A DNA stretch of 32,000 bases from Candidatus Hermodarchaeota archaeon (GTDB lineage Archaea > Asgardarchaeota > Heimdallarchaeia > Hodarchaeales > Hodarchaeaceae), in assembly GCA_048886185.1 (NCBI GenBank), contig JBHLKY010000001.1, forward strand, positions 270,001-302,000, written 5' to 3'. The position numbers were made by a program, and so were the translations under genes. Below are positions 22,470 through 28,724 of the stretch, piece by piece. Every line of letters starts with the position of its first letter. The first letter of the stretch is position 1. The notes under the pieces were generated by a model. That model saw only the letters and a list, made by a program, of their open reading frames with translations, did not search any database and had not been told where the DNA came from.

Positions 22470-23054
22470 CTATTTTCCAAATAAAAATCCAATTCCAGAA
22501 AAGAGGAAAAATAAACCATATAGGATCCCTATTAAATCAGTAGTTATTAGCCCTGCAGTTAAGAAAAGTGCACCAAATACAAAAAAAGTTATTAGAGCAG
22601 TCCATTCTGCTGAGGGCCCTTTCTCAGATTGCGAAGTAATTCTAATGAATTGATATCGAGTGAAACTACGTAATAACAGGGCGGATGATACTGCTAAATA
22701 CGGAAATGCTAATATTGAGGATACAGTAATTTGAAGTTGAGTGAATTCATTTACAGGTAGAATTTCAACGTTAAAAGTTAACAATGGTTCTTCATTAAGA
22801 GGGAAGAACGAACTTGTAAGTATAACCAATAAGGGAATGATATTCGCTAATGAAAAAAAGTAAATCTCATTCAAGGTTGCTTTTACATCAATATAATATA
22901 GAATTCTTAGAAAATAAAATATAGTTATGGTTGCATATAGAGTCAGGTAGAGAATATTCATAGCATTACTGTCTTCATCACGTATGAAGAAAAAAATACT
23001 AGCTGATATTCCCATAAGGAAGACAAAAAATGCCATGGAATGACGTGAAGCCAT
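22470..23054 (-). CDS. Multi-pass (about 6 TM) membrane protein, last tightly coupled gene of the Ubl operon
   Basis: Alternating hydrophobic helices; 4 bp gap to the upstream gene. Confidence 0.75.
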   Translation of the reverse strand: MASRHSMAFFVFLMGISASIFFFIRDEDSNAMNILYLTLYATITIFYFLRILYYIDVKATLNEIYFFSLANIIPLLVILTSSFFPLNEEPLLTFNVEILPVNEFTQLQITVSSILAFPYLAVSSALLLRSFTRYQFIRITSQSEKGPSAEWTALITFFVFGALFLTAGLITTDLIGILYGLFFLFSGIGFLFGK

Positions 23055-23058
23055 CTTT

Positions 23059-24213
23059 TTAGCCCCATCGGTTATTTAGAAGATTTTCCTGAAACATTTT
23101 AATTAATTTCTCGTAATTCTTCCCAGAAAGACGATACATCTTTTTTGTTGAGATAGGTTTATTACATCGGGAACAAATATCTGCAACACTAAGCCATTTT
23201 TCTAACTCAAGCGAATGAGCTGGATGACCACAATGAGGACAGATGACTACTTTCTTATCTGGTTCAGTGGGAAATCCATAACAAAAAATACATCGAAAGT
23301 CATCATGAGATAAATGTTGGCCAGAGGGAATAAGCTTAGTAATGATAGCTGGATTTAGTCTGTCGATACGAGTAACTGTTCTCCCTGTTTGTATTCCTGG
23401 AGCTACTGTAACAGAGTTGATACTTTCGGATCGTGGTGTTCTAGACATTTGGGGTACTGATCTTGGTTGTAATAGGCTTGCTTGATTCGTTCTTGGTTGG
23501 CTATTTGCATTGCGAGGACTAACTGAGGATGTTCTATTAACAATAAAAGATCTCCCTAATGTTTGTTGAGGTAAACGATTAACAGTCACACGACGGATTG
23601 GAACAAGAACAACCTTAAGTATATAATATTGGATCAGAAAAATAATACTAACACTAACAAAACATAATCCACTAAATTCAATAATCCTAGTTTGGATCCA
23701 AAAAAAAGCTAAACTTAAAATTATACAGAGATTATACAGAATGACAATTTTGTTGGGAACCTTCCTTCTAAAGATAAAAATTGATGGATACCTGTTTGAA
23801 TAATACTTTTGGAGGAGAAATAGGAGAAATATAAAGAATGGTAACACAAAAATAATACTAAATATGTTTAGAAAAACAAAATAATTTCCACCATTAATAA
23901 ACTCAATGTCGAGAGAGATTTCGAAGAAAGATGATCGTAGAAAATCATTTTCTCCTAAAGACGCTGTATGAGCTATCAATGTTCCCCCATATGCGATTAA
24001 CGACGGGATTCCAATAAAGATTCCCGAGGCAATTGGAGCATTATAATGCTGGAAATATCGCCATTCCTCAAGAAATTTTAAAATCAAAATTGCAGTTAAA
24101 GTAATATAAGCAATTGTAAGAGCAGTTTCTATTGGTTGATCAGTGAGTAATGTTAATAGCGTAAAAACAAACCCGACGACACAGATAGAAAGATATACAT
24201 TACGCCCGACCAA
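23059..24213 (-). CDS. Multi-pass membrane protein with C-terminal RING-variant zinc finger (putative membrane E3 ligase)
   Basis: About 6 TM helices, an R/S/P/Q-rich linker, then CIFC-x13-CPHCGHPAH-x2-E-x2-KWL-x5-CSRC (nt 23164-23292). Confidence 0.75.
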   Translation of the reverse strand: MVGRNVYLSICVVGFVFTLLTLLTDQPIETALTIAYITLTAILILKFLEEWRYFQHYNAPIASGIFIGIPSLIAYGGTLIAHTASLGENDFLRSSFFEISLDIEFINGGNYFVFLNIFSIIFVLPFFIFLLFLLQKYYSNRYPSIFIFRRKVPNKIVILYNLCIILSLAFFWIQTRIIEFSGLCFVSVSIIFLIQYYILKVVLVPIRRVTVNRLPQQTLGRSFIVNRTSSVSPRNANSQPRTNQASLLQPRSVPQMSRTPRSESINSVTVAPGIQTGRTVTRIDRLNPAIITKLIPSGQHLSHDDFRCIFCYGFPTEPDKKVVICPHCGHPAHSLELEKWLSVADICSRCNKPISTKKMYRLSGKNYEKLIKMFQENLLNNRWG

Positions 24214-24231: not shown

Positions 24232-25152
24232 TTAATTCTCATGATCATATTCTAAAAACATACTACCATTTTTCTCTGCTAGTGGAAGAAGGGTATTCAT
24301 CATCTCAGGAAGGCTCTCTAGAGGGCAATTAAGGACTTGGTAGGGTGGTTCTTCCCAGGTTTGCAAATCCTCTTTTAAACGGAATATTTTAAAGCCATAT
24401 GAACGTTTAGATATTTTTGTTGGATCAATAACTAAAGCAATAGGTGCTGTTAACTGGGAGTCTTTCGTCCTTCCAAGTTTTTGGTAGCGAACTTGAGTCT
24501 CAAAATCGGTTTGACTCATGAATACTCCATATGATGGGTGACTATGATACCAACCAAGAATAAGCTGATCATGGGTTTTCATTTTTATTTCATTATACAC
24601 TCTGACCATGGATTGAGGATCTTGGATTTGTGCATTTACCTCAGTGCCATGACCAATTGGATAGGCATCCTCGACATTTAAACATGCTAATGGAGTATCT
24701 TTTTGTTCAATTTGTCCCGTTAAAAGCCCGATTACCTCAATCCATTTACTTTGGGGTGTATTCGGATTTGCGTACTTTAAAGCATGTAAAGCAAGCTTTA
24801 TGTAAGCTTTAAGATGAATTTTAACACGAGAAGGCTTCGAGTCGGGATCTAGGTCATCAAGATTTAAGTCAACAGATTCTGTGTTTTCTTCTCGATTTTG
24901 ATTCATATTATGATTTTCATCCTTATTGAGATTCTCTGATCCGTTGGTAAAAAGCTTCTCTGTTTTTGTTTTTAATTGGGAAGGTTTAAACTGTATTTGC
25001 TTACTTAATGGATTCCAAGTATAATTATCAGGCGGGAGAGTAATGAAAGGAAATTTTAACGTAAATGATAAAGTTTGAGGGTCAAATGTTAATGAAAGAT
25101 CCCGTAGTAGTAATTCGAAAACATTTTTGGGAATTTTATTATTATTAGGCAT
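24232..25152 (-). CDS. JAB1/MPN+ (JAMM) metallo-isopeptidase, Rpn11/CSN5-like, with N-terminal extension
   Basis: EVIGLL plus GWYHSHPSYGVFMSQTD (E...HxH-x7-S-x2-D intact), TQ..YQ, ALVIDP. Confidence 0.9.
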   Translation of the reverse strand: MPNNNKIPKNVFELLLRDLSLTFDPQTLSFTLKFPFITLPPDNYTWNPLSKQIQFKPSQLKTKTEKLFTNGSENLNKDENHNMNQNREENTESVDLNLDDLDPDSKPSRVKIHLKAYIKLALHALKYANPNTPQSKWIEVIGLLTGQIEQKDTPLACLNVEDAYPIGHGTEVNAQIQDPQSMVRVYNEIKMKTHDQLILGWYHSHPSYGVFMSQTDFETQVRYQKLGRTKDSQLTAPIALVIDPTKISKRSYGFKIFRLKEDLQTWEEPPYQVLNCPLESLPEMMNTLLPLAEKNGSMFLEYDHEN

Positions 25153-25181: not shown

Positions 25182-25709
25182 TTACCATTTTTCAGAAGCA
25201 TATTTCTTAGTAATTTTATGGGCTTTTTTCAAGAAATTCTTGCGATCACTAAGATATTCTTGAGCTGCTTTCTTATTGAAAACATCATGAGGATTAGTAT
25301 ACGCTGTGTCAATGTTGAACATTGCTAAAATCGAATAAATTATTGTACTAATGTTTTTTGAAGGAGACCAACCGTCTGGTCTTCCCACAAGGTCGGGGTC
25401 AACAAGAGCTAGGCATATATTCCGTTTTCCTTGATATTCGTCAGGTTTTGGCCAGAAATTTGGATGCCAAATTGGAGTATGTAATCGGACAAAAGGGGGG
25501 GAATATGGGTAGTTTGATCCAAACTTAATTTCTAGTTTGAATTTGCCCTTTTCATAAGGGGTTCCTTTCGGTCCCTCAAGAAGAATTGCTAAGTGTTCTA
25601 CGCTTTTTTTTCCGCCTGGAAAGGCCTTTAGCTGCTTAATGGTTTTTTGTTTGTATAATTTTTTTAGTTGTTTATAATCATCAGCGATTCGTTTAAGTCT
25701 GATAGACAT
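25182..25709 (-). CDS. Ubiquitin-conjugating enzyme E2 (UBC fold)
   Basis: GPKGTPYEKG.F, YPYSPP, HPN motif, catalytic Cys (codon 25415-25413) in ICL, WSP. AGGTG SD. Confidence 0.92.
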   Translation of the reverse strand: MSIRLKRIADDYKQLKKLYKQKTIKQLKAFPGGKKSVEHLAILLEGPKGTPYEKGKFKLEIKFGSNYPYSPPFVRLHTPIWHPNFWPKPDEYQGKRNICLALVDPDLVGRPDGWSPSKNISTIIYSILAMFNIDTAYTNPHDVFNKKAAQEYLSDRKNFLKKAHKITKKYASEKW

Positions 25710-25725
25710 TTCTCACACCTTTTTA

Positions 25726-26970
25726 TTACTCAATTTTCAATTTAATATAGGATTGAGTGCCATCATCAAACCCCGTGACCAATATAGTCTCATAATCTCG
25801 GATTCCAGCTTCAAATATGCTCTGATTTGTATCAATTTCATTAATATCTGAATTATCTATACGAAAAACAATTGGAGGAAATTCTGGATCAATGGTGAGC
25901 TTTTTTTCTTCCGCTAATTTATTGATGATCTTTTGAATATTTGCCTTAGAATTCACTTTTATCCGATAGAGGGGGGAATGGTTATTACCACACATTGTAC
26001 AATCTGGGTTCTTAGGTTTTTCAATTTCATAGAACTTCCCAGTCAAACCATTGTATATCACATAATTTAATTGAAGTGTTCCAAGTTTTCTTTTTTCTGG
26101 AGGTGTGTGGAGATGATGAAGAATTTTAACTGCTTCTTGTGATTGTAGAGATGCCATTACACAATTGATGGTGATAACTGTTGGCTCGTGATTATCTATT
26201 ATTTGGATGATCTGATCAGTCGTAAACGGTTGTGAGCCGGGAAAATATTGTTTAAGTAGATGATTCGCATATTCTCTAATGGTGTCAACTTCATCTTGTT
26301 TGAGAATGTTCACCGGCCGATTGTAATCCTGTTCAAATTTCAATTGGCCTTTGAGTATACAATGAGCTGGTCTACGGGGATTACCTACTAAAGTGCAAGC
26401 CCCTAGCTGATCTTGTTCTCGTTCTGTTAATGGATCACACTCTAAACAAGCATTACTGAATGGCCAGACACAATAAACGTGTCCATTGAATGCTGCTGTA
26501 CCAGCATCGATCAATGGCTTTCGATTATGAATAGCTCGCCTGTTTAATTCTGACCTTGCTTCTATTGAATCTAAGCCAGCGATGTAAAGATCAGCTTCAT
26601 TATATAGATGGGGAGGTAGATCTTGAAGCGCGCAATTATGAGCCTCTACTTCAATGAAAGGATTCAATTCTTGTAAACGTTTAGCCGCATATTGTGCCTT
26701 AGATGTTCCCTCTGTGGCTCCGATGAACAGTACCTGGCGATTCAAATTAGAATATTCAATTGTATCAAGATCCACCAGGATTAATCGGCCGACTCCGACC
26801 ATTGCGAGGTTTTTTGCAACTTCCACACCGAGGCCACCAACGCCAACAATAAGAACGGTACTTTTTTTAAGGATCTCTTGTTTCCATCCAGGTAAACGGA
26901 GTTGGCGATCAAAGCGACGCTTTTCTTCTTCAGTGAACAGGTTACTGGTGAAACTTGATATTTTATTCAT
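25726..26970 (-). CDS. Ubl-activating enzyme E1 (ThiF fold with UBA2/UBA3-like catalytic Cys segment and C-terminal ubiquitin-fold-like domain)
   Basis: RFDRQ, GVGGLG, DLDTIEYSNLNRQ, Zn pairs CLEC/CTMC, catalytic GACTLVGNPRRPAHCI. Confidence 0.9.
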   Translation of the reverse strand: MNKISSFTSNLFTEEEKRRFDRQLRLPGWKQEILKKSTVLIVGVGGLGVEVAKNLAMVGVGRLILVDLDTIEYSNLNRQVLFIGATEGTSKAQYAAKRLQELNPFIEVEAHNCALQDLPPHLYNEADLYIAGLDSIEARSELNRRAIHNRKPLIDAGTAAFNGHVYCVWPFSNACLECDPLTEREQDQLGACTLVGNPRRPAHCILKGQLKFEQDYNRPVNILKQDEVDTIREYANHLLKQYFPGSQPFTTDQIIQIIDNHEPTVITINCVMASLQSQEAVKILHHLHTPPEKRKLGTLQLNYVIYNGLTGKFYEIEKPKNPDCTMCGNNHSPLYRIKVNSKANIQKIINKLAEEKKLTIDPEFPPIVFRIDNSDINEIDTNQSIFEAGIRDYETILVTGFDDGTQSYIKLKIE

Positions 26971-26983
26971 ATTTTTTCAACTA

Positions 26984-27346
26984 CTAATTTATTGATCCAG
27001 CTGTTGAAACTGGGATAATCAAACATTCAAGTCCATCTTCAATATCATAATTCGAGAGAACATCATCTGCATCTAAGGTTCTTCCACTTATGGATATATG
27101 GAAGTCTTGTGGATCAAGACCGAAGATTCCTCCAAGCGTTTCTTTTAAATCTGAGACCCCCATCTCAGGATCGATTGTGAGTTTTTCAAGTTTCTCTCCA
27201 GGCCCAATTGTGGATCGAAAGAATAAACTAACGCGAGAATCTTTTGGGATTTTACTTGTAGGCACTTTTGTCGTCACTACAGGAGTTTCTGAGTTCTTCT
27301 TTTCTTCTTCAATTTCCAGGTCATCAAAATCTTCATTTTCAGACAT
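26984..27346 (-). CDS. Ubiquitin-like protein 2 (acidic N-tail; C-terminal STAG masked by SIN)
   Basis: Beta-grasp pattern FFRST...SGRTLD...LSNYDIEDG..LIIP aligns by eye to ubiquitin. The start is moved to 27346 because of a GGAGA SD and collinearity with the Ubl1 N-terminus. Confidence 0.85.
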   Translation of the reverse strand: MSENEDFDDLEIEEEKKNSETPVVTTKVPTSKIPKDSRVSLFFRSTIGPGEKLEKLTIDPEMGVSDLKETLGGIFGLDPQDFHISISGRTLDADDVLSNYDIEDGLECLIIPVSTAGSIN

Positions 27347-27522
27347 TAAGCAATTCTCCATTCTGATTAAAAGCATCCAAATTATCAATTCATCTTCAAT
27401 ATGAAAAACATTGTTTTTTGAATCTTCTTTTGTTTGCAAATAATCTTCTGAATACGTCAATTTAATTATTCCCTTTTATCTCATAGGTACAAAATTGATG
27501 TGATTTGATGATGGAAATTGAT

Positions 27523-27726
27523 TCAAATCAAAATCTCCCCTAAGATAGACTCTTTTCCTGATTGAAGAAGCCAAAGATTAGCTTGAATATAATACTCAAT
27601 TGACGCTAGTAACAAATTTAAATCGCTTTTGCAGTCTTTATGTTCGCTAAGAGCCCTTTTTGCTTTCTCTCGCTCAACCATGGCAAAAACAATTGTTTCA
27701 ATAATACTAGCTCGAACCTCTTTCAA
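27523..27726 (-). CDS. Possible small helical hypothetical protein between the two Ubls
   Basis: 67-codon frame with a TTG start only, no recognisable motif, same strand as the operon. Confidence 0.25.
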   Translation of the reverse strand: MKEVRASIIETIVFAMVEREKAKRALSEHKDCKSDLNLLLASIEYYIQANLWLLQSGKESILGEILI

Positions 27727-27805
27727 TAAAAAGCCATCCTGAGAAGATAAAAAGAAGGGGAGTTCTTTCTTTTTATTCTAAAAAGTTGAATAATATGGAA
27801 AAAAC

Positions 27806-28153
27806 TCATCCAGCCGTACTGTGAGGGATCAAAAGAATTTCATCGCCGTTATCGACACCATAATCACCTAAAGGTGCTGACTCATCTAGAGTCCGACCGG
27901 CGTGGCTTAGATGAAAATCATCTGGATTTAACCCAAAGATGTTAGCCAAGGTGTCTCTGACGTCTCTAACAGGAGTGTTTTCTCCTACAGAAATTTTTTC
28001 AGTACGTTCAGGCCCAACGGTGGATTTGAAGAAAATATTCTTCTTAGGACCTGCAGATACTCCTGATACTGGAGTTTTCGATTGGGCGGGAGTTTTGGAT
28101 TTAATTCTGGTTTTTTCTTCTAAATCAAAGTCCAAATCTTCAAAATCTGACAT
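27806..28153 (-). CDS. Ubiquitin-like protein 1 (acidic N-tail; free C-terminal STAG)
   Basis: IFFKST...AGRTLD...LGDYGVDNGD.ILLIP; ends HSTAG-stop. AGGTGA SD. Confidence 0.88.
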   Translation of the reverse strand: MSDFEDLDFDLEEKTRIKSKTPAQSKTPVSGVSAGPKKNIFFKSTVGPERTEKISVGENTPVRDVRDTLANIFGLNPDDFHLSHAGRTLDESAPLGDYGVDNGDEILLIPHSTAG

Positions 28154-28177: not shown

Positions 28178-28273
28178 ATGAGTTTTATTTTGTATATGAA
28201 ACTCATGTAAGATACGTACCTTACGTATTTATAAAACTTACGGAATATACGTAACACCCGAAAAATATATAAG
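28178..28273. promoter_or_regulatory. Divergent promoter with four TACGTA-type boxes, TATA elements and an 8-bp inverted repeat
   Basis: TACGTA at 28213, 28222 and 28248; TACGGA at 28239; palindromic TTTATAAA at 28228-28235; A-rich BRE-like run plus TATATAAG at 28266-28273; ATGAGTTT-13-AAACTCAT at 28178-28206. Confidence 0.65.
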
Positions 28274-28304
28274 GGTGAAAGTAATATTTTCCATCAAAGA
28301 GATT

Positions 28305-28724
28305 ATGAAAGAAGATGAGGTTGACTTATTGTCAGAAAGTGCCCAAAATACCAAAATTTCTAGTAAGGCGTGGGAACTTTTACGATGGGCAAAATTTGAG
28401 CTTGATGCAAAATCTTACAGTGATGTAATTGTTTTATTAAACAAGAAAATTAATAACCGGTCGAAAAGTATGGAAAAGGCATTAGAAAACTTCGATGAGG
28501 AACGACATAGGATCAAAGTAAAAACACCCGGTAATGATGAAGAACAAAGCATTTTCTTAGAAAAACCTAAAACAATCTTATTAAGACCCGAAGCTCGAAA
28601 GATTCTCAATCGATTAAAATTAGAAAGCAATAAACCAGCATATACATTTTCGGATGGAATTGAATTTATAATAAAAGGAAATAAAGAAATCTGGAACGCT
28701 ATTCCTGATCGTTTGAAGAAATAA
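28305..28724 (+). CDS. Tandem ribbon-helix-helix-like DNA-binding protein
   Basis: Two similar units, NTKISSKAWELLRWAK..AKSYSDVIVLL and KTILLRPEARKILNRLK..AYTFSDGIEFII, resemble the archaeal RHH/VapB-type pattern TI.IS...Y..L...K...SFSDVI. The ATG at 28305 is preferred over the GTG at 28275 because of the TATA position. Confidence 0.55.
   Translation: MKEDEVDLLSESAQNTKISSKAWELLRWAKFELDAKSYSDVIVLLNKKINNRSKSMEKALENFDEERHRIKVKTPGNDEEQSIFLEKPKTILLRPEARKILNRLKLESNKPAYTFSDGIEFIIKGNKEIWNAIPDRLKK

What the first reader, a model, noticed from the sequence alone, without database searches (positions are those of the whole stretch)
26984..28153. Two paralogous Ubls end in Ala-Gly rather than Gly-Gly; one is mature, the other is capped
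Ubl1 ends LIPHSTAG-stop and Ubl2 ends IIPVSTAG-SIN-stop. The AG sits in the register of ubiquitin G75-G76, and Ser-Thr replaces ubiquitin's Leu73-Arg74. Established: Ubl precursors need a protease to expose the terminal Gly. Inference: Ubl1 is constitutively usable while Ubl2 is gated by the operon's JAMM protease, giving two signals from one E1/E2.
Basis: partly seen in the sequence, partly recalled or inferred. Interest (0 to 1): 0.8.

Follow-up and report, generated by a model that had tools for sequence, protein, structure and literature searches.

The report
Asgard ubiquitin-like tags ending Ala-Gly
Two neighbouring genes of a Hodarchaeales-type Asgard archaeon encode ubiquitin-type protein tags that end in Ala-Gly instead of Gly-Gly, which is the signature of a whole Asgard-wide tag family, and the three extra residues on one of them are a real but evolutionarily disposable cap rather than a conserved switch.

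Summary
Ubl1 (27806-28153, minus strand) ends IPHSTAG-stop. Ubl2 (26984-27346) ends IPVSTAG-SIN-stop. They are 43% identical. Both have a ubiquitin fold, and Ala-Gly sits in the register of ubiquitin G75-G76.

Ala-Gly is not a local oddity. All 172 full-length homologues, and every complete family gene scanned in 80 of 247 related loci, end in x-A-G. These come from records labelled Heimdall-, Hod-, Prometh- (Loki), Hermod- and Odinarchaeota.

The SIN cap is real. A 98%-identical strain from another study keeps it. Caps are nevertheless labile:
- The nearest relative carries YY instead of SIN.
- Among 21 two-Ubl operons, 8 cap only Ubl2, 6 cap only Ubl1, 4 cap neither and 3 cap both.
- The Gly-Gly ubiquitin of the same genus shows the same cap turnover.
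- The JAMM protease is kept in operons that have no cap at all.

"One free, one gated" therefore describes this genome correctly but is not a conserved design. Cleavage by the operon's JAMM is supported by precedent and by a complex model. It has not been shown.

The genome also carries two Gly-Gly cascades, each with its own E1, so the Ala-Gly tail may insulate this pathway from them.

This scan found the same family before on other DNA (e1-5444737, e1-3191408, e1-4807625). I found no paper that describes it.

The parts
27806..28153 (-). Ubl1, 115 aa. It has a disordered acidic/basic N-tail (residues 1-36) and a beta-grasp domain (37-110). The tail is IPHSTAG followed directly by a TGA stop, so it is translated in mature form.
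   Evidence: ORF and sequence. Pfam ubiquitin PF00240, 31.2 bits against a cut-off of 25.4. AlphaFold2 model with pLDDT above 90 over the domain. Foldseek top hit is Caldiarchaeum ubiquitin 6fno_D. ISG15 and ubiquitin match at Z 14-15.6.
27809..27814 (-). The Ala114-Gly115 codons (GCT GGA) of Ubl1. This is the presumed conjugation end.
   Evidence: Sequence. A114 and G115 are invariant in alignment A1.
27523..27726 (-). orf67, a small helical ORF between the two Ubl genes. It is present only in part of the clade and its function is unknown.
   Evidence: 44% identical to the ORF at the same position in L109 (E = 9e-18). Also found in L029, L030, L031 and L032. No Pfam family. The protein atlas gave nothing informative.
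26984..27346 (-). Ubl2, 120 aa counted from the ATG. It has the same architecture as Ubl1. The tail is IPVSTAG plus a Ser-Ile-Asn cap and then TAG, so it is translated as a pro-form.
   Evidence: 43% identical to Ubl1. Pfam ubiquitin scores 21.1 bits, below the cut-off. 87 homologues, of which 84 carry the motif IP[VI]S.AG.
26987..26995 (-). The cap codons TCA ATA AAT (Ser-Ile-Asn) after Gly117 of Ubl2. The stop is at 26984-26986. Only 13 bases separate it from the E1 start codon.
   Evidence: Sequence. Unchanged in contigs from an independent study. The cap is not conserved in relatives.
25726..26970 (-). E1-like activating enzyme, 414 aa. It has a ThiF adenylation domain, two CxxC pairs, an A-C-T-L-V-G-x-P catalytic-cysteine motif, and a weak hit to a ubiquitin-like fold at its C-terminus (Rad60-SLD, E = 0.089).
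   Evidence: Pfam ThiF at 2.6e-54 and the weak Rad60-SLD hit at residues 335-396. The motif residues are invariant in 22 operons.
25182..25709 (-). E2-like conjugating enzyme, 175 aa, with an invariant HPN motif and catalytic Cys.
   Evidence: Pfam UQ_con at 3.2e-27. Invariant H-P-N and Cys in 22 operons.
24232..25152 (-). Rpn11-like JAMM/MPN+ metalloprotease, 306 aa. It is the presumed cap-trimming and deconjugating enzyme.
   Evidence: Pfam JAB at 1.8e-15. E139, H203, H205, S213 and D216 are invariant in 37 homologues. Complex model with Ubl2. Present in every complete operon, including those without caps.
23059..24213 (-). Multi-pass membrane protein, 384 aa, with a C-terminal Cys/His zinc-finger (RING-like). 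It is the presumed E3.
   Evidence: The C-x2-C...C-x-H...C-x2-C pattern is read from the translation. Pfam gives only weak zinc-ribbon hits. A homologue follows the JAMM gene in most operons. Not analysed further here.
22470..23054 (-). 194-aa membrane protein. It is the last gene of the conserved Hodarchaeales-type operon.
   Evidence: A homologue is present in 20 of the scanned operons, all of Hodarchaeales/Heimdall type.

Best explanation
The two genes encode paralogous members of an Asgard-wide clade of ubiquitin-family modifiers. The reactive end of this clade is an invariant Ala-Gly, usually within Ser-Thr-Ala-Gly.

Ubl1 belongs to the lineage that also supplies the single operon tag in Loki- and other Heimdall-type operons. 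Ubl2 is a divergent paralogue confined to the Hodarchaeales-type operon. The operon's single E1 and E2 most likely serve both, as happens for SUMO paralogues or for SAMP1-3 with UbaA. The membrane RING-like protein would then pass them on to targets.

Ubl1 is made ready to use. Ubl2 is made with a three-residue cap. That cap must be cut after Gly117 before adenylation, most likely by the operon's Rpn11-like JAMM.

The cap itself is evolutionary noise. A stop codon drifts by point mutation (here TGA versus TCA). This is tolerated because the JAMM trims whatever follows the Gly. The JAMM is kept for deconjugation even where no tag is capped.

Shown here: gene structure, fold, register, family-wide conservation of Ala-Gly, cap lability, and conserved catalytic motifs.

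Inferred: E1 charging of Ala-Gly ends, JAMM cleavage after Gly, one E1 serving both tags, and neutrality of the cap.
For: Fold and register.

Ala-Gly is invariant:
- 88 of 93 hits in the Ubl1 search and 84 of 87 in the Ubl2 search carry IP-x-[ST]-x-A-G. The rest are truncated or frameshifted.
- Every complete family gene in the 80 scanned loci, out of 247 found, ends the same way.

Catalytic motifs of E1, E2 and JAMM are invariant across operons.

Caps are labile:
- 43 of 88 and 44 of 84 homologues are uncapped. The others carry 1-22 unrelated residues.
- The 21 two-Ubl operons split 8/6/4/3.
- On the E1+E2+JAMM tree the window's own clade shows SIN, YY, none, FDF, SSNRS, I and IYY. A sister clade caps Ubl1 instead.

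Control: the GG ubiquitin of the same genus keeps RTTGG invariant while its caps vary (NK, FPN, ST, FA, H, LS, TNR, IVR, MVR, KR or none).

The JAMM is retained in operons where neither tag is capped (L030, L035, L037, L042 and many Loki-type operons).

Precedents:
- CsRpn11 removes a nine-residue cap from Caldiarchaeum pro-ubiquitin, and the E1 cannot use the uncut form (PMC5654768, PMC6043591).
- Bacterial BilA leaves an Ala-Gly remnant on targets and is pre-processed by the JAB protease BilC (PMC10557695).

Complex model of JAMM residues 100-306 with Ubl2 residues 36-120: score 0.90 against a best control of 0.52. That mark was reached by 58 of 80 solved complexes and 2 of 110 mismatched pairs. 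The runs agree in at least 97% of contacts and the partner's pLDDT is at least 91. Ubl2 residues 109-120 touch E139, H203, H205, S213 and D216. A like complex is solved (6FNO), so this pass may reflect likeness only.

The Ubl tree, built without the tail columns, separates the Ubl2 lineage (23 rows, support 99) from Ubl1 plus the single-copy forms.
Against: There is no biochemical or expression evidence for any step.

In CsRpn11, a Gly-to-Ala change at the penultimate position slowed cleavage strongly (PMC6043591). Cleavage after Ala-Gly therefore needs an adapted pocket, which I did not demonstrate.

Exactly one capped tag occurs in 14 of 21 operons. Within the window's own clade Ubl2 is capped in 6 of 7. 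Some selection for asymmetric capping is therefore not excluded.

The first residues of caps are enriched in aromatic and hydrophobic residues. That could reflect a protease preference rather than pure drift.

The operons are related to one another, so the counts are not independent events.
Confidence: 0.6

Rival explanations
1. Asymmetric capping is a selected regulatory design. One paralogue is always available and the other is released only when the JAMM is active, which gives two differently timed signals from one E1/E2.
For: Exactly one tag is capped in 14 of 21 two-Ubl operons. Ubl2 is capped in 6 of 7 members of the window's own clade. In the 17 species-representative operons alone, no both-capped case was seen. 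An uncorrected Fisher test gave p = 0.03. The cap blocks E1 use in the Caldiarchaeum system (PMC5654768).
Against: Which paralogue is capped swaps between sister clades. Four operons cap neither tag and three cap both. Cap sequence and length are unconstrained. The five Ubl1-capped representatives form one clade and so count as one event. The unrelated GG ubiquitin of the same genus has equally erratic caps. The Fisher result ignores relatedness and weakens once the both-capped contigs are added.
Confidence: 0.15
2. The capped Ubl2 is not processed in this organism. It acts non-covalently, for example as a decoy or regulator of the E1, E2 or JAMM, or it is on its way to becoming a non-conjugatable Ubl-domain protein.
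For: Loki-type loci carry a divergent protein of about 265 aa that has a family-like Ubl domain but no Ala-Gly end. Non-conjugatable derivatives therefore do arise. Penultimate Ala slows an Rpn11-type protease (PMC6043591).
Against: The IPVSTAG tail of Ubl2 is as strictly conserved as that of uncapped orthologues (78 of 84). About half of Ubl2 orthologues are uncapped and so are directly conjugatable. The complex model places the scissile region at the JAMM zinc site (caveats as given under the best explanation).
Confidence: 0.08
3. The Ala-Gly proteins are not protein modifiers at all. They would be sulfur carriers or adaptor Ubl domains, and the operon linkage would be incidental.
For: ThiS/MoaD-type beta-grasp proteins also pair with ThiF-family enzymes. 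No conjugate has been observed.
Against: The operon order Ubl-E1-E2-JAMM-membrane RING is conserved across phyla. The E1 has a eukaryote-type catalytic-cysteine motif and the E2 has HPN plus Cys, both invariant. The closest sequence and fold matches are ubiquitin, ISG15 and Caldiarchaeum ubiquitin, not ThiS or MoaD.
Confidence: 0.03

Closest known systems
Caldiarchaeum subterraneum ubiquitin operon (CsUb, E1-like, E2-like, small RING finger protein, CsRpn11), reconstituted in vitro (PMC5654768, PMC6043591)
   Same: It has a single-domain ubiquitin-fold tag. CsUb is the best structural hit for Ubl1 (6fno_D, 29% identity). It also has a single-chain E1, a UBC-type E2, an Rpn11-like JAMM and a RING. 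The tag is encoded as a pro-form whose cap the JAMM removes before the E1 can act.
   Different: CsUb ends Gly-Gly, and a G77A change slows CsRpn11. It has no long N-terminal tail and there is only one tag gene. Its RING protein is small and soluble. In this family the end is an invariant Ala-Gly, the tag gene is duplicated, the RING-like domain is fused to a multi-pass membrane protein, and the caps are 0-22 residues long and unconserved.
Asgard Gly-Gly ubiquitin cascade linked to ESCRT (Helarchaeial pro-ubiquitin GG+SPKN, E1, E2, RING E3; bioRxiv 10.1101/2023.07.25.550441; PMC9192718)
   Same: It is found in the same group of organisms and has the same enzyme logic, with short C-terminal caps. 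The window's genome has such a ubiquitin (ending ...RTTGG-NK) next to its own E1 on contig C14.
   Different: It is a different tag family with a different, equally invariant tail, its own E1, and no N-terminal extension. The Ala-Gly operon is a separate, parallel cascade in the same genome.
Bacterial BilABCD (Bil) ubiquitination-like defence system (PMC10557695)
   Same: The mature tag of Ensifer aridi BilA leaves an Ala-Gly remnant on lysines. The tag is pre-processed, and later removed, by the operon's JAB/JAMM protease. It has an E1 plus an E2. This is direct precedent that an Ala-Gly end can be activated and conjugated.
   Different: BilA has two beta-grasp domains and is ISG15-like. The system has no RING and is bacterial, with an anti-phage role. 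I did not test homology of its enzymes to those here.
Eukaryotic SUMO paralogues (my own knowledge, not tested here)
   Same: They have a disordered N-terminal extension on a ubiquitin fold. Several paralogues share one E1 and one E2. Their C-terminal caps vary in length and sequence and are removed by a dedicated protease.
   Different: SUMO ends Gly-Gly. The processing enzymes are cysteine proteases (SENP/Ulp), not JAMMs. No specific sequence relationship was found: Pfam Rad60-SLD gave only weak hits below its cut-off.
UFM1 (my own lead, from memory of its single-Gly end and two-residue cap)
   Same: It has a single terminal Gly preceded by a non-Gly residue, a short cap, and a hydrophobic-Ile-Pro stretch before the tail.
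   Different: Neither Ubl matched Pfam Ufm1, and no match was found in the genome. UFM1 is not among the best sequence or fold matches. The Asgard Ufm1 homologues reported in PMC12962969 are most likely a different family, though I could not inspect their sequences.

Membership tests
Ubiquitin family (Pfam PF00240) conjugatable modifiers | Beta-grasp ubiquitin fold | tested here: met
   The AlphaFold2 model has the order beta-beta-alpha-beta-(short helix)-beta with pLDDT above 90. Foldseek hits to CsUb, ISG15 and ubiquitin have E values of 1e-6 to 3e-8. Z is 14-15.6 over 75-80 residues at rmsd 1.0-1.5 A.
Ubiquitin family (Pfam PF00240) conjugatable modifiers | Sequence match above the curated family threshold | tested here: met
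   Ubl1 scores 31.2 bits against a cut-off of 25.4. Ubl2 alone scores 21.1 bits, below the cut-off, but is 43% identical to Ubl1. The family profile hits single ubiquitin chains at about E = 1e-4.
Ubiquitin family (Pfam PF00240) conjugatable modifiers | C-terminal Gly-Gly | tested here: not met
   The end is Ala-Gly in both genes and in all 172 full-length homologues. The terminal Gly itself is present and invariant.
Ubiquitin family (Pfam PF00240) conjugatable modifiers | Covalent attachment to target lysines through E1 and E2 | not testable with these tools
   There is only operon linkage to an E1 and an E2 with invariant catalytic motifs.
Archaeal operonic eukaryote-type ubiquitylation systems (Caldiarchaeum/Asgard type) | Co-encoded tag, E1 with catalytic Cys, UBC-type E2, RING-type E3 and Rpn11-like JAMM | tested here: met
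   Pfam ThiF, UQ_con and JAB. The A-C-T-L-V-G-x-P, HPN/Cys and E...HxH...S..D motifs are invariant. The RING-like Cys/His pattern was read from the translation only. The gene order is conserved in about 50 loci.
Archaeal operonic eukaryote-type ubiquitylation systems (Caldiarchaeum/Asgard type) | Pro-tag cleaved after the terminal Gly by the system's JAMM | tested here: inconclusive
   The complex model scored 0.90 against a best control of 0.52. That mark was reached by 58 of 80 solved and 2 of 110 mismatched pairs, with at least 97% contact agreement and partner pLDDT of at least 91. A like complex is solved (6FNO), so the pass may be from memory.
UFM1 family (Pfam PF03671) | Sequence match to the Ufm1 profile | tested here: not met
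   Neither Ubl matched even at E up to 10. There was no match in the whole genome.
UFM1 family (Pfam PF03671) | Fold closer to UFM1 than to ubiquitin | tested here: inconclusive
   UFM1 is not among the 50 best rows of either fold comparison. Not being listed does not exclude it.
Bacterial Bil (BilABCD) systems | Tag with two tandem beta-grasp domains (ISG15-like) | tested here: not met
   There is a single beta-grasp domain preceded by a disordered tail.

The most novel reading that the evidence does not exclude
The invariant Ala at the penultimate position, within the Ser-Thr-Ala-Gly tail, is the identity element that keeps this cascade orthogonal to the two Gly-Gly ubiquitin cascades in the same cell. 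Each cascade has its own E1, and two are linked to their own JAMM. On this reading Hodarchaeales already run several insulated Ubl pathways, including a duplicated tag pair analogous to SUMO paralogues. Tail-encoded pathway separation of the ubiquitin/NEDD8/SUMO kind would then predate eukaryotes.
Probability: 0.35. Interest if true: 0.65.

Novelty: new variant of a known kind. Interest (0 to 1): 0.45.

Why it matters
Hodarchaeales are among the closest known archaeal relatives of eukaryotes.

This genome carries three eukaryote-type tagging cascades, each with its own E1 and its own invariant tail (RTTGG, DQIKGG and STAG). One of them has a duplicated tag and a membrane-embedded RING-like protein. 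This suggests that Ubl pathways diversified and became insulated from one another before eukaryotes arose.

The Ala-Gly end is a concrete, testable handle. Single-residue swaps should show whether the tail alone sets E1 and JAMM specificity. The distinctive remnant could be searched for in metaproteomes.

For the narrower claim handed to me, the outcome is sobering. The mature-versus-capped contrast is real in this genome. It looks like tolerated stop-codon drift rather than a regulatory device.

Tried and rejected
UFM1 lead. I recalled that UFM1 has a single Gly, a two-residue cap and an Ile-Pro stretch before its tail. No Pfam Ufm1 match was found for either Ubl or in the genome, and UFM1 was not among the best fold matches. 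I dropped the lead. The Asgard Ufm1 homologues of PMC12962969 could not be inspected because no supplementary files are held.

Expression. In the look-up of sequencing runs with kind 'any', no RNA holder was listed. Nothing can be said about transcription.

Statistics. A Fisher test on the cap states of 17 representative operons gave p = 0.03. I do not rely on it. The operons are related, the five Ubl1-capped cases form one clade, and three both-capped contigs turned up afterwards.

orf67. It has no Pfam family. The protein atlas returned only generic helical-hairpin look-alikes with scores of 0.75 or less. Its function is left open.

Literature. Searches for an Ala-Gly or non-diglycine Asgard tag found the general Asgard and Caldiarchaeum ubiquitin papers and the bacterial Bil paper. 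None describes this family. The library does not hold subscription journals.

Not attempted:
- Identifying the JAMM or E1 pocket residues that accommodate Ala.
- Analysing the RING-like membrane protein or the upstream TACGTA boxes. Other findings of this scan cover those.
Full report
WHAT IS THERE

On the minus strand, Ubl1 (27806-28153, 115 aa) ends LLIPHSTAG followed by TGA. Ubl2 ends LIIPVSTAG-SIN followed by TAG.

The mechanical ORF list gives Ubl2 a TTG start and 158 aa. The ATG at 27346 (MSENEDF...) is the start used by orthologues and by the database's own gene call, P0095, of 120 aa.

The two proteins are 43% identical over their whole length (E = 1e-30). The Ubl1 stop and the first cap codon of Ubl2 differ by one base (TGA versus TCA) at the homologous position.

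Logan contigs from a different study (run X5) are about 98% identical. They cover the 3' end of Ubl2 and the Ubl1 stop with no change in the AG, SIN or stop codons. The cap is therefore not an assembly artefact.

CONTEXT

The two genes head an operon that continues as follows:
- E1, Pfam ThiF at 2.6e-54.
- E2, Pfam UQ_con at 3.2e-27.
- JAMM, Pfam JAB at 1.8e-15.
- A 384-aa multi-pass membrane protein with a C-terminal Cys/His RING-like finger.
- A 194-aa membrane protein.

Several motifs are invariant across 22 operons:
- The E1 nucleotide-binding glycines.
- Two CxxC pairs in the E1.
- An A-C-T-L-V-G-x-P-R motif in the E1. From my own knowledge, this is the eukaryotic E1 catalytic-cysteine motif.
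- HPN and the catalytic Cys in the E2.

The JAMM residues E139, H203, H205, S213 and D216 are invariant in 37 homologues. The cascade looks catalytically competent.

FOLD AND REGISTER

Ubl1 models as a disordered tail (residues 1-36) followed by a confident beta-grasp domain.

The best Foldseek hit is Caldiarchaeum ubiquitin bound to its Rpn11 homologue (6fno_D, 29% identity). ISG15, ubiquitin, NEDD8 and SUMO follow. VIA-align gives Z values of 14-15.6.

Both the profile alignment and the structural alignments (model 36/37-115 to ubiquitin -1/0-76) are ungapped to the end. This gives the following correspondences:
- Ala114-Gly115 corresponds to ubiquitin G75-G76.
- Ser-Thr corresponds to L73-R74.
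- His (Ubl1) or Val (Ubl2) corresponds to R72.

THE ALA-GLY END IS A FAMILY TRAIT

Homology searches returned 93 proteins for Ubl1 and 87 for Ubl2. The records are labelled Heimdall-, Hod-, Prometh- (Loki), Hermod- and Odinarchaeota.

Of these, 88 and 84 carry IP-x-[ST]-x-A-G. The remainder are truncated or frameshifted. None ends Gly-Gly.

A scan of one genome per species found 247 loci. In the 80 I retrieved, every complete family gene ends the same way.

In alignment A1, the residues I109, P110, S112, A114 and G115 are invariant.

I built a tree without the tail columns. It separates the Ubl2 lineage (23 rows, support 99) from a group that holds Ubl1, the Loki Ala-type and the other Heimdall Val-type tags. 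Ubl1 therefore continues the ancestral operon tag and Ubl2 is a divergent paralogue.

The two-Ubl operons form one clade on an E1+E2+JAMM tree (18 rows, support 100).

CAPS

About half of each lineage is uncapped (43 of 88 and 44 of 84). The rest carry 1-22 unrelated residues.

Cap states for the 21 operons that hold both paralogues:

| Cap state | Operons | Members |
|---|---|---|
| Ubl1 free, Ubl2 capped | 8 | window, L029, L031, L032, L033, L041, L043, L044 |
| Ubl1 capped, Ubl2 free | 6 | L013, L034, L036, L039, L040, L152 |
| Neither capped | 4 | L030, L035, L037, L042 |
| Both capped | 3 | L109 (RY/KI), L151 (MC/22 residues), the Logan contig with P0010 and P0149 |

On the tree, the window's own clade of seven shows SIN, YY, none, FDF, SSNRS, I and IYY on Ubl2. 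The five WN/WR caps on Ubl1 form a single sister clade.

As a control I looked at the Gly-Gly ubiquitin of the same genus. Its tail RTTGG is invariant while its caps read NK, FPN, ST, FA, H, LS, TNR, IVR, MVR, LSC, KR or nothing. A third tag, ending DQIKGG, is almost always uncapped.

Short, unconserved caps are thus a general property of these archaeal tag genes. They do not distinguish Ubl2 from Ubl1.

PROCESSING

The JAMM gene is present in every complete operon. That includes operons in which no tag is capped. Its conserved job must therefore be more than maturation, and deconjugation is the obvious candidate (inference).

Precedents from the literature:
- CsRpn11 removes the nine-residue cap of Caldiarchaeum pro-ubiquitin exactly after Gly-Gly. 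It also cleaves conjugates, and the E1 cannot use the uncut form (PMC5654768, PMC6043591).
- In that enzyme a penultimate Gly-to-Ala change slowed cleavage markedly and Gly-to-Val abolished it (PMC6043591).
- Bacterial BilA is pre-processed by a JAB protease and leaves an Ala-Gly remnant on lysines (PMC10557695). An Ala-Gly end is therefore chemically workable.

I ran a complex model of the window's JAMM (residues 100-306, with zinc) and Ubl2 (residues 36-120).
- It scored 0.90 against a best control of 0.52.
- That mark was reached by 58 of 80 solved complexes and 2 of 110 mismatched pairs.
- The runs agree in at least 97% of contacts and the partner's pLDDT is at least 91.
- Ubl2 residues 109-120 touch E139, H203, H205, S213 and D216.

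A like complex (6FNO) is solved. The pass therefore shows likeness to that complex, not that this copy cuts.

PARALLEL CASCADES

The same genome (4.84 Mb, 96% complete) holds several other systems:
- On C14, a ubiquitin ending RTTGG-NK lies next to its own 341-aa E1, with E2-like genes nearby.
- On C8, a tag ending DQIKGG lies with its own 410-aa E1, an E2 and a JAB.
- On C10, there is a bacterial-type JAB, E1 and double-E2 set.

No Ufm1-family match was found.

So there are three eukaryote-type tags, three private E1s and three different invariant tails. Together with the CsRpn11 G77A result, this suggests that the Ala-Gly tail helps keep the pathways apart. That is inference. It is my most novel reading, at about one chance in three.

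KNOWN OR NEW

Asgard and Aigarchaeota tag-E1-E2-RING-JAMM operons are known, and one has been reconstituted. Pro-tag trimming by the operon's JAMM is also known.

I found no paper in the searchable library that describes an Asgard tag family ending in Ala-Gly, its tandem duplication or its cap behaviour. Public records call these proteins only 'ubiquitin-like domain-containing' or hypothetical.

Earlier follow-ups of this scan reached the same family-level conclusion on other genomes. This window is therefore another instance, not a first sighting.

- The cap-state table placed on a tree.
- The Gly-Gly ubiquitin control.
- The JAMM-Ubl2 complex model.

LIMITS

Nothing here shows transcription, cleavage, charging or conjugation. 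The operon counts are not independent events. The membrane RING-like protein and the N-terminal tails were not analysed.

Noticed in passing
window 27523-27726 (-): A 67-aa helical ORF sits between the two Ubl genes. It is conserved at the same position in L029, L030, L031, L032 and L109 (44% identity to L109, E = 9e-18) but absent from other two-Ubl operons such as L013. It has no known family.
   Followed up: partly
window 27220-27346 and 28030-28153 (-): Both tags carry a disordered N-terminal extension of about 36-40 residues. It has a conserved acidic Phe-x-x-Leu-type motif (F4 is kept in at least 90% of 60 homologues) followed by a basic K-S-K-T-P stretch (K20 and P22 are kept in at least 90%). 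The motif is shared with Loki-type tags.
   Followed up: partly
own genome G000:C14:38869-39965 (L003, L028): A canonical ubiquitin (84 aa, ending RTTGG-NK) lies directly upstream of its own 341-aa ThiF-type E1. A 263-aa P-loop ATPase-like gene and a small GTPase-like gene are adjacent, and E2/UEV-like genes lie at C14:45202 and C14:34641. Its caps vary among species of the genus just as the Ala-Gly tags' caps do.
   Followed up: partly
own genome G000:C8:9760-13570 (L026): This is a third cascade. JAB (199 aa) and E2 (180 aa) are on one strand. A 263-aa protein with an N-terminal Cys-rich (zinc-ribbon-like) motif, a Ubl ending DQIKGG (109 aa) and an E1 (410 aa) are on the other. The Ubl is uncapped in 15 of 17 relatives.
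   Followed up: partly
own genome G000:C10:153900-157000 (L027): A bacterial-type module lies here. It has a 322-aa protein that appears JAB-like by eye, a 422-aa E1-like protein and two tandem E2-like proteins (145 and 138 aa), with no obvious tag gene. Its gene set recalls bacterial E1/E2/JAB modules (my impression; not tested).
   Followed up: no
L015, L054-L060, L062, L063, L067, L068 and others (Loki-type loci): Upstream of the operon tag (IPASTAG), Loki-type loci carry a second family tag ending IPAS[ITV]AG. They also carry a divergently transcribed protein of about 265 aa with a family-like Ubl domain that ends ...LIPSRKEKN and so has no Ala-Gly. Further unlinked IPASTAG copies occur elsewhere in the same assemblies, for example L049 with L055, L077 with L059, and L069 with L067.
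   Followed up: partly
L080 (contig DATKTW010000176.1): A contig filed under a Nanopelagicaceae (actinobacterial) assembly carries the full Loki-type operon of tag, E1, E2, JAMM and membrane RING. It is most likely a mis-binned Asgard contig rather than gene transfer.
   Followed up: no
L151 965-1447: One Ubl2 orthologue has a 22-residue Lys-rich extension after VSTAG. This is far longer than the usual 1-7 residues.
   Followed up: no
window 28178-28260: Several TACGTA hexamers are visible in the raw sequence between the Ubl1 start and the divergent 149-aa gene (28275-28724). Another reader of this scan also noted them. I did not analyse them.
   Followed up: no
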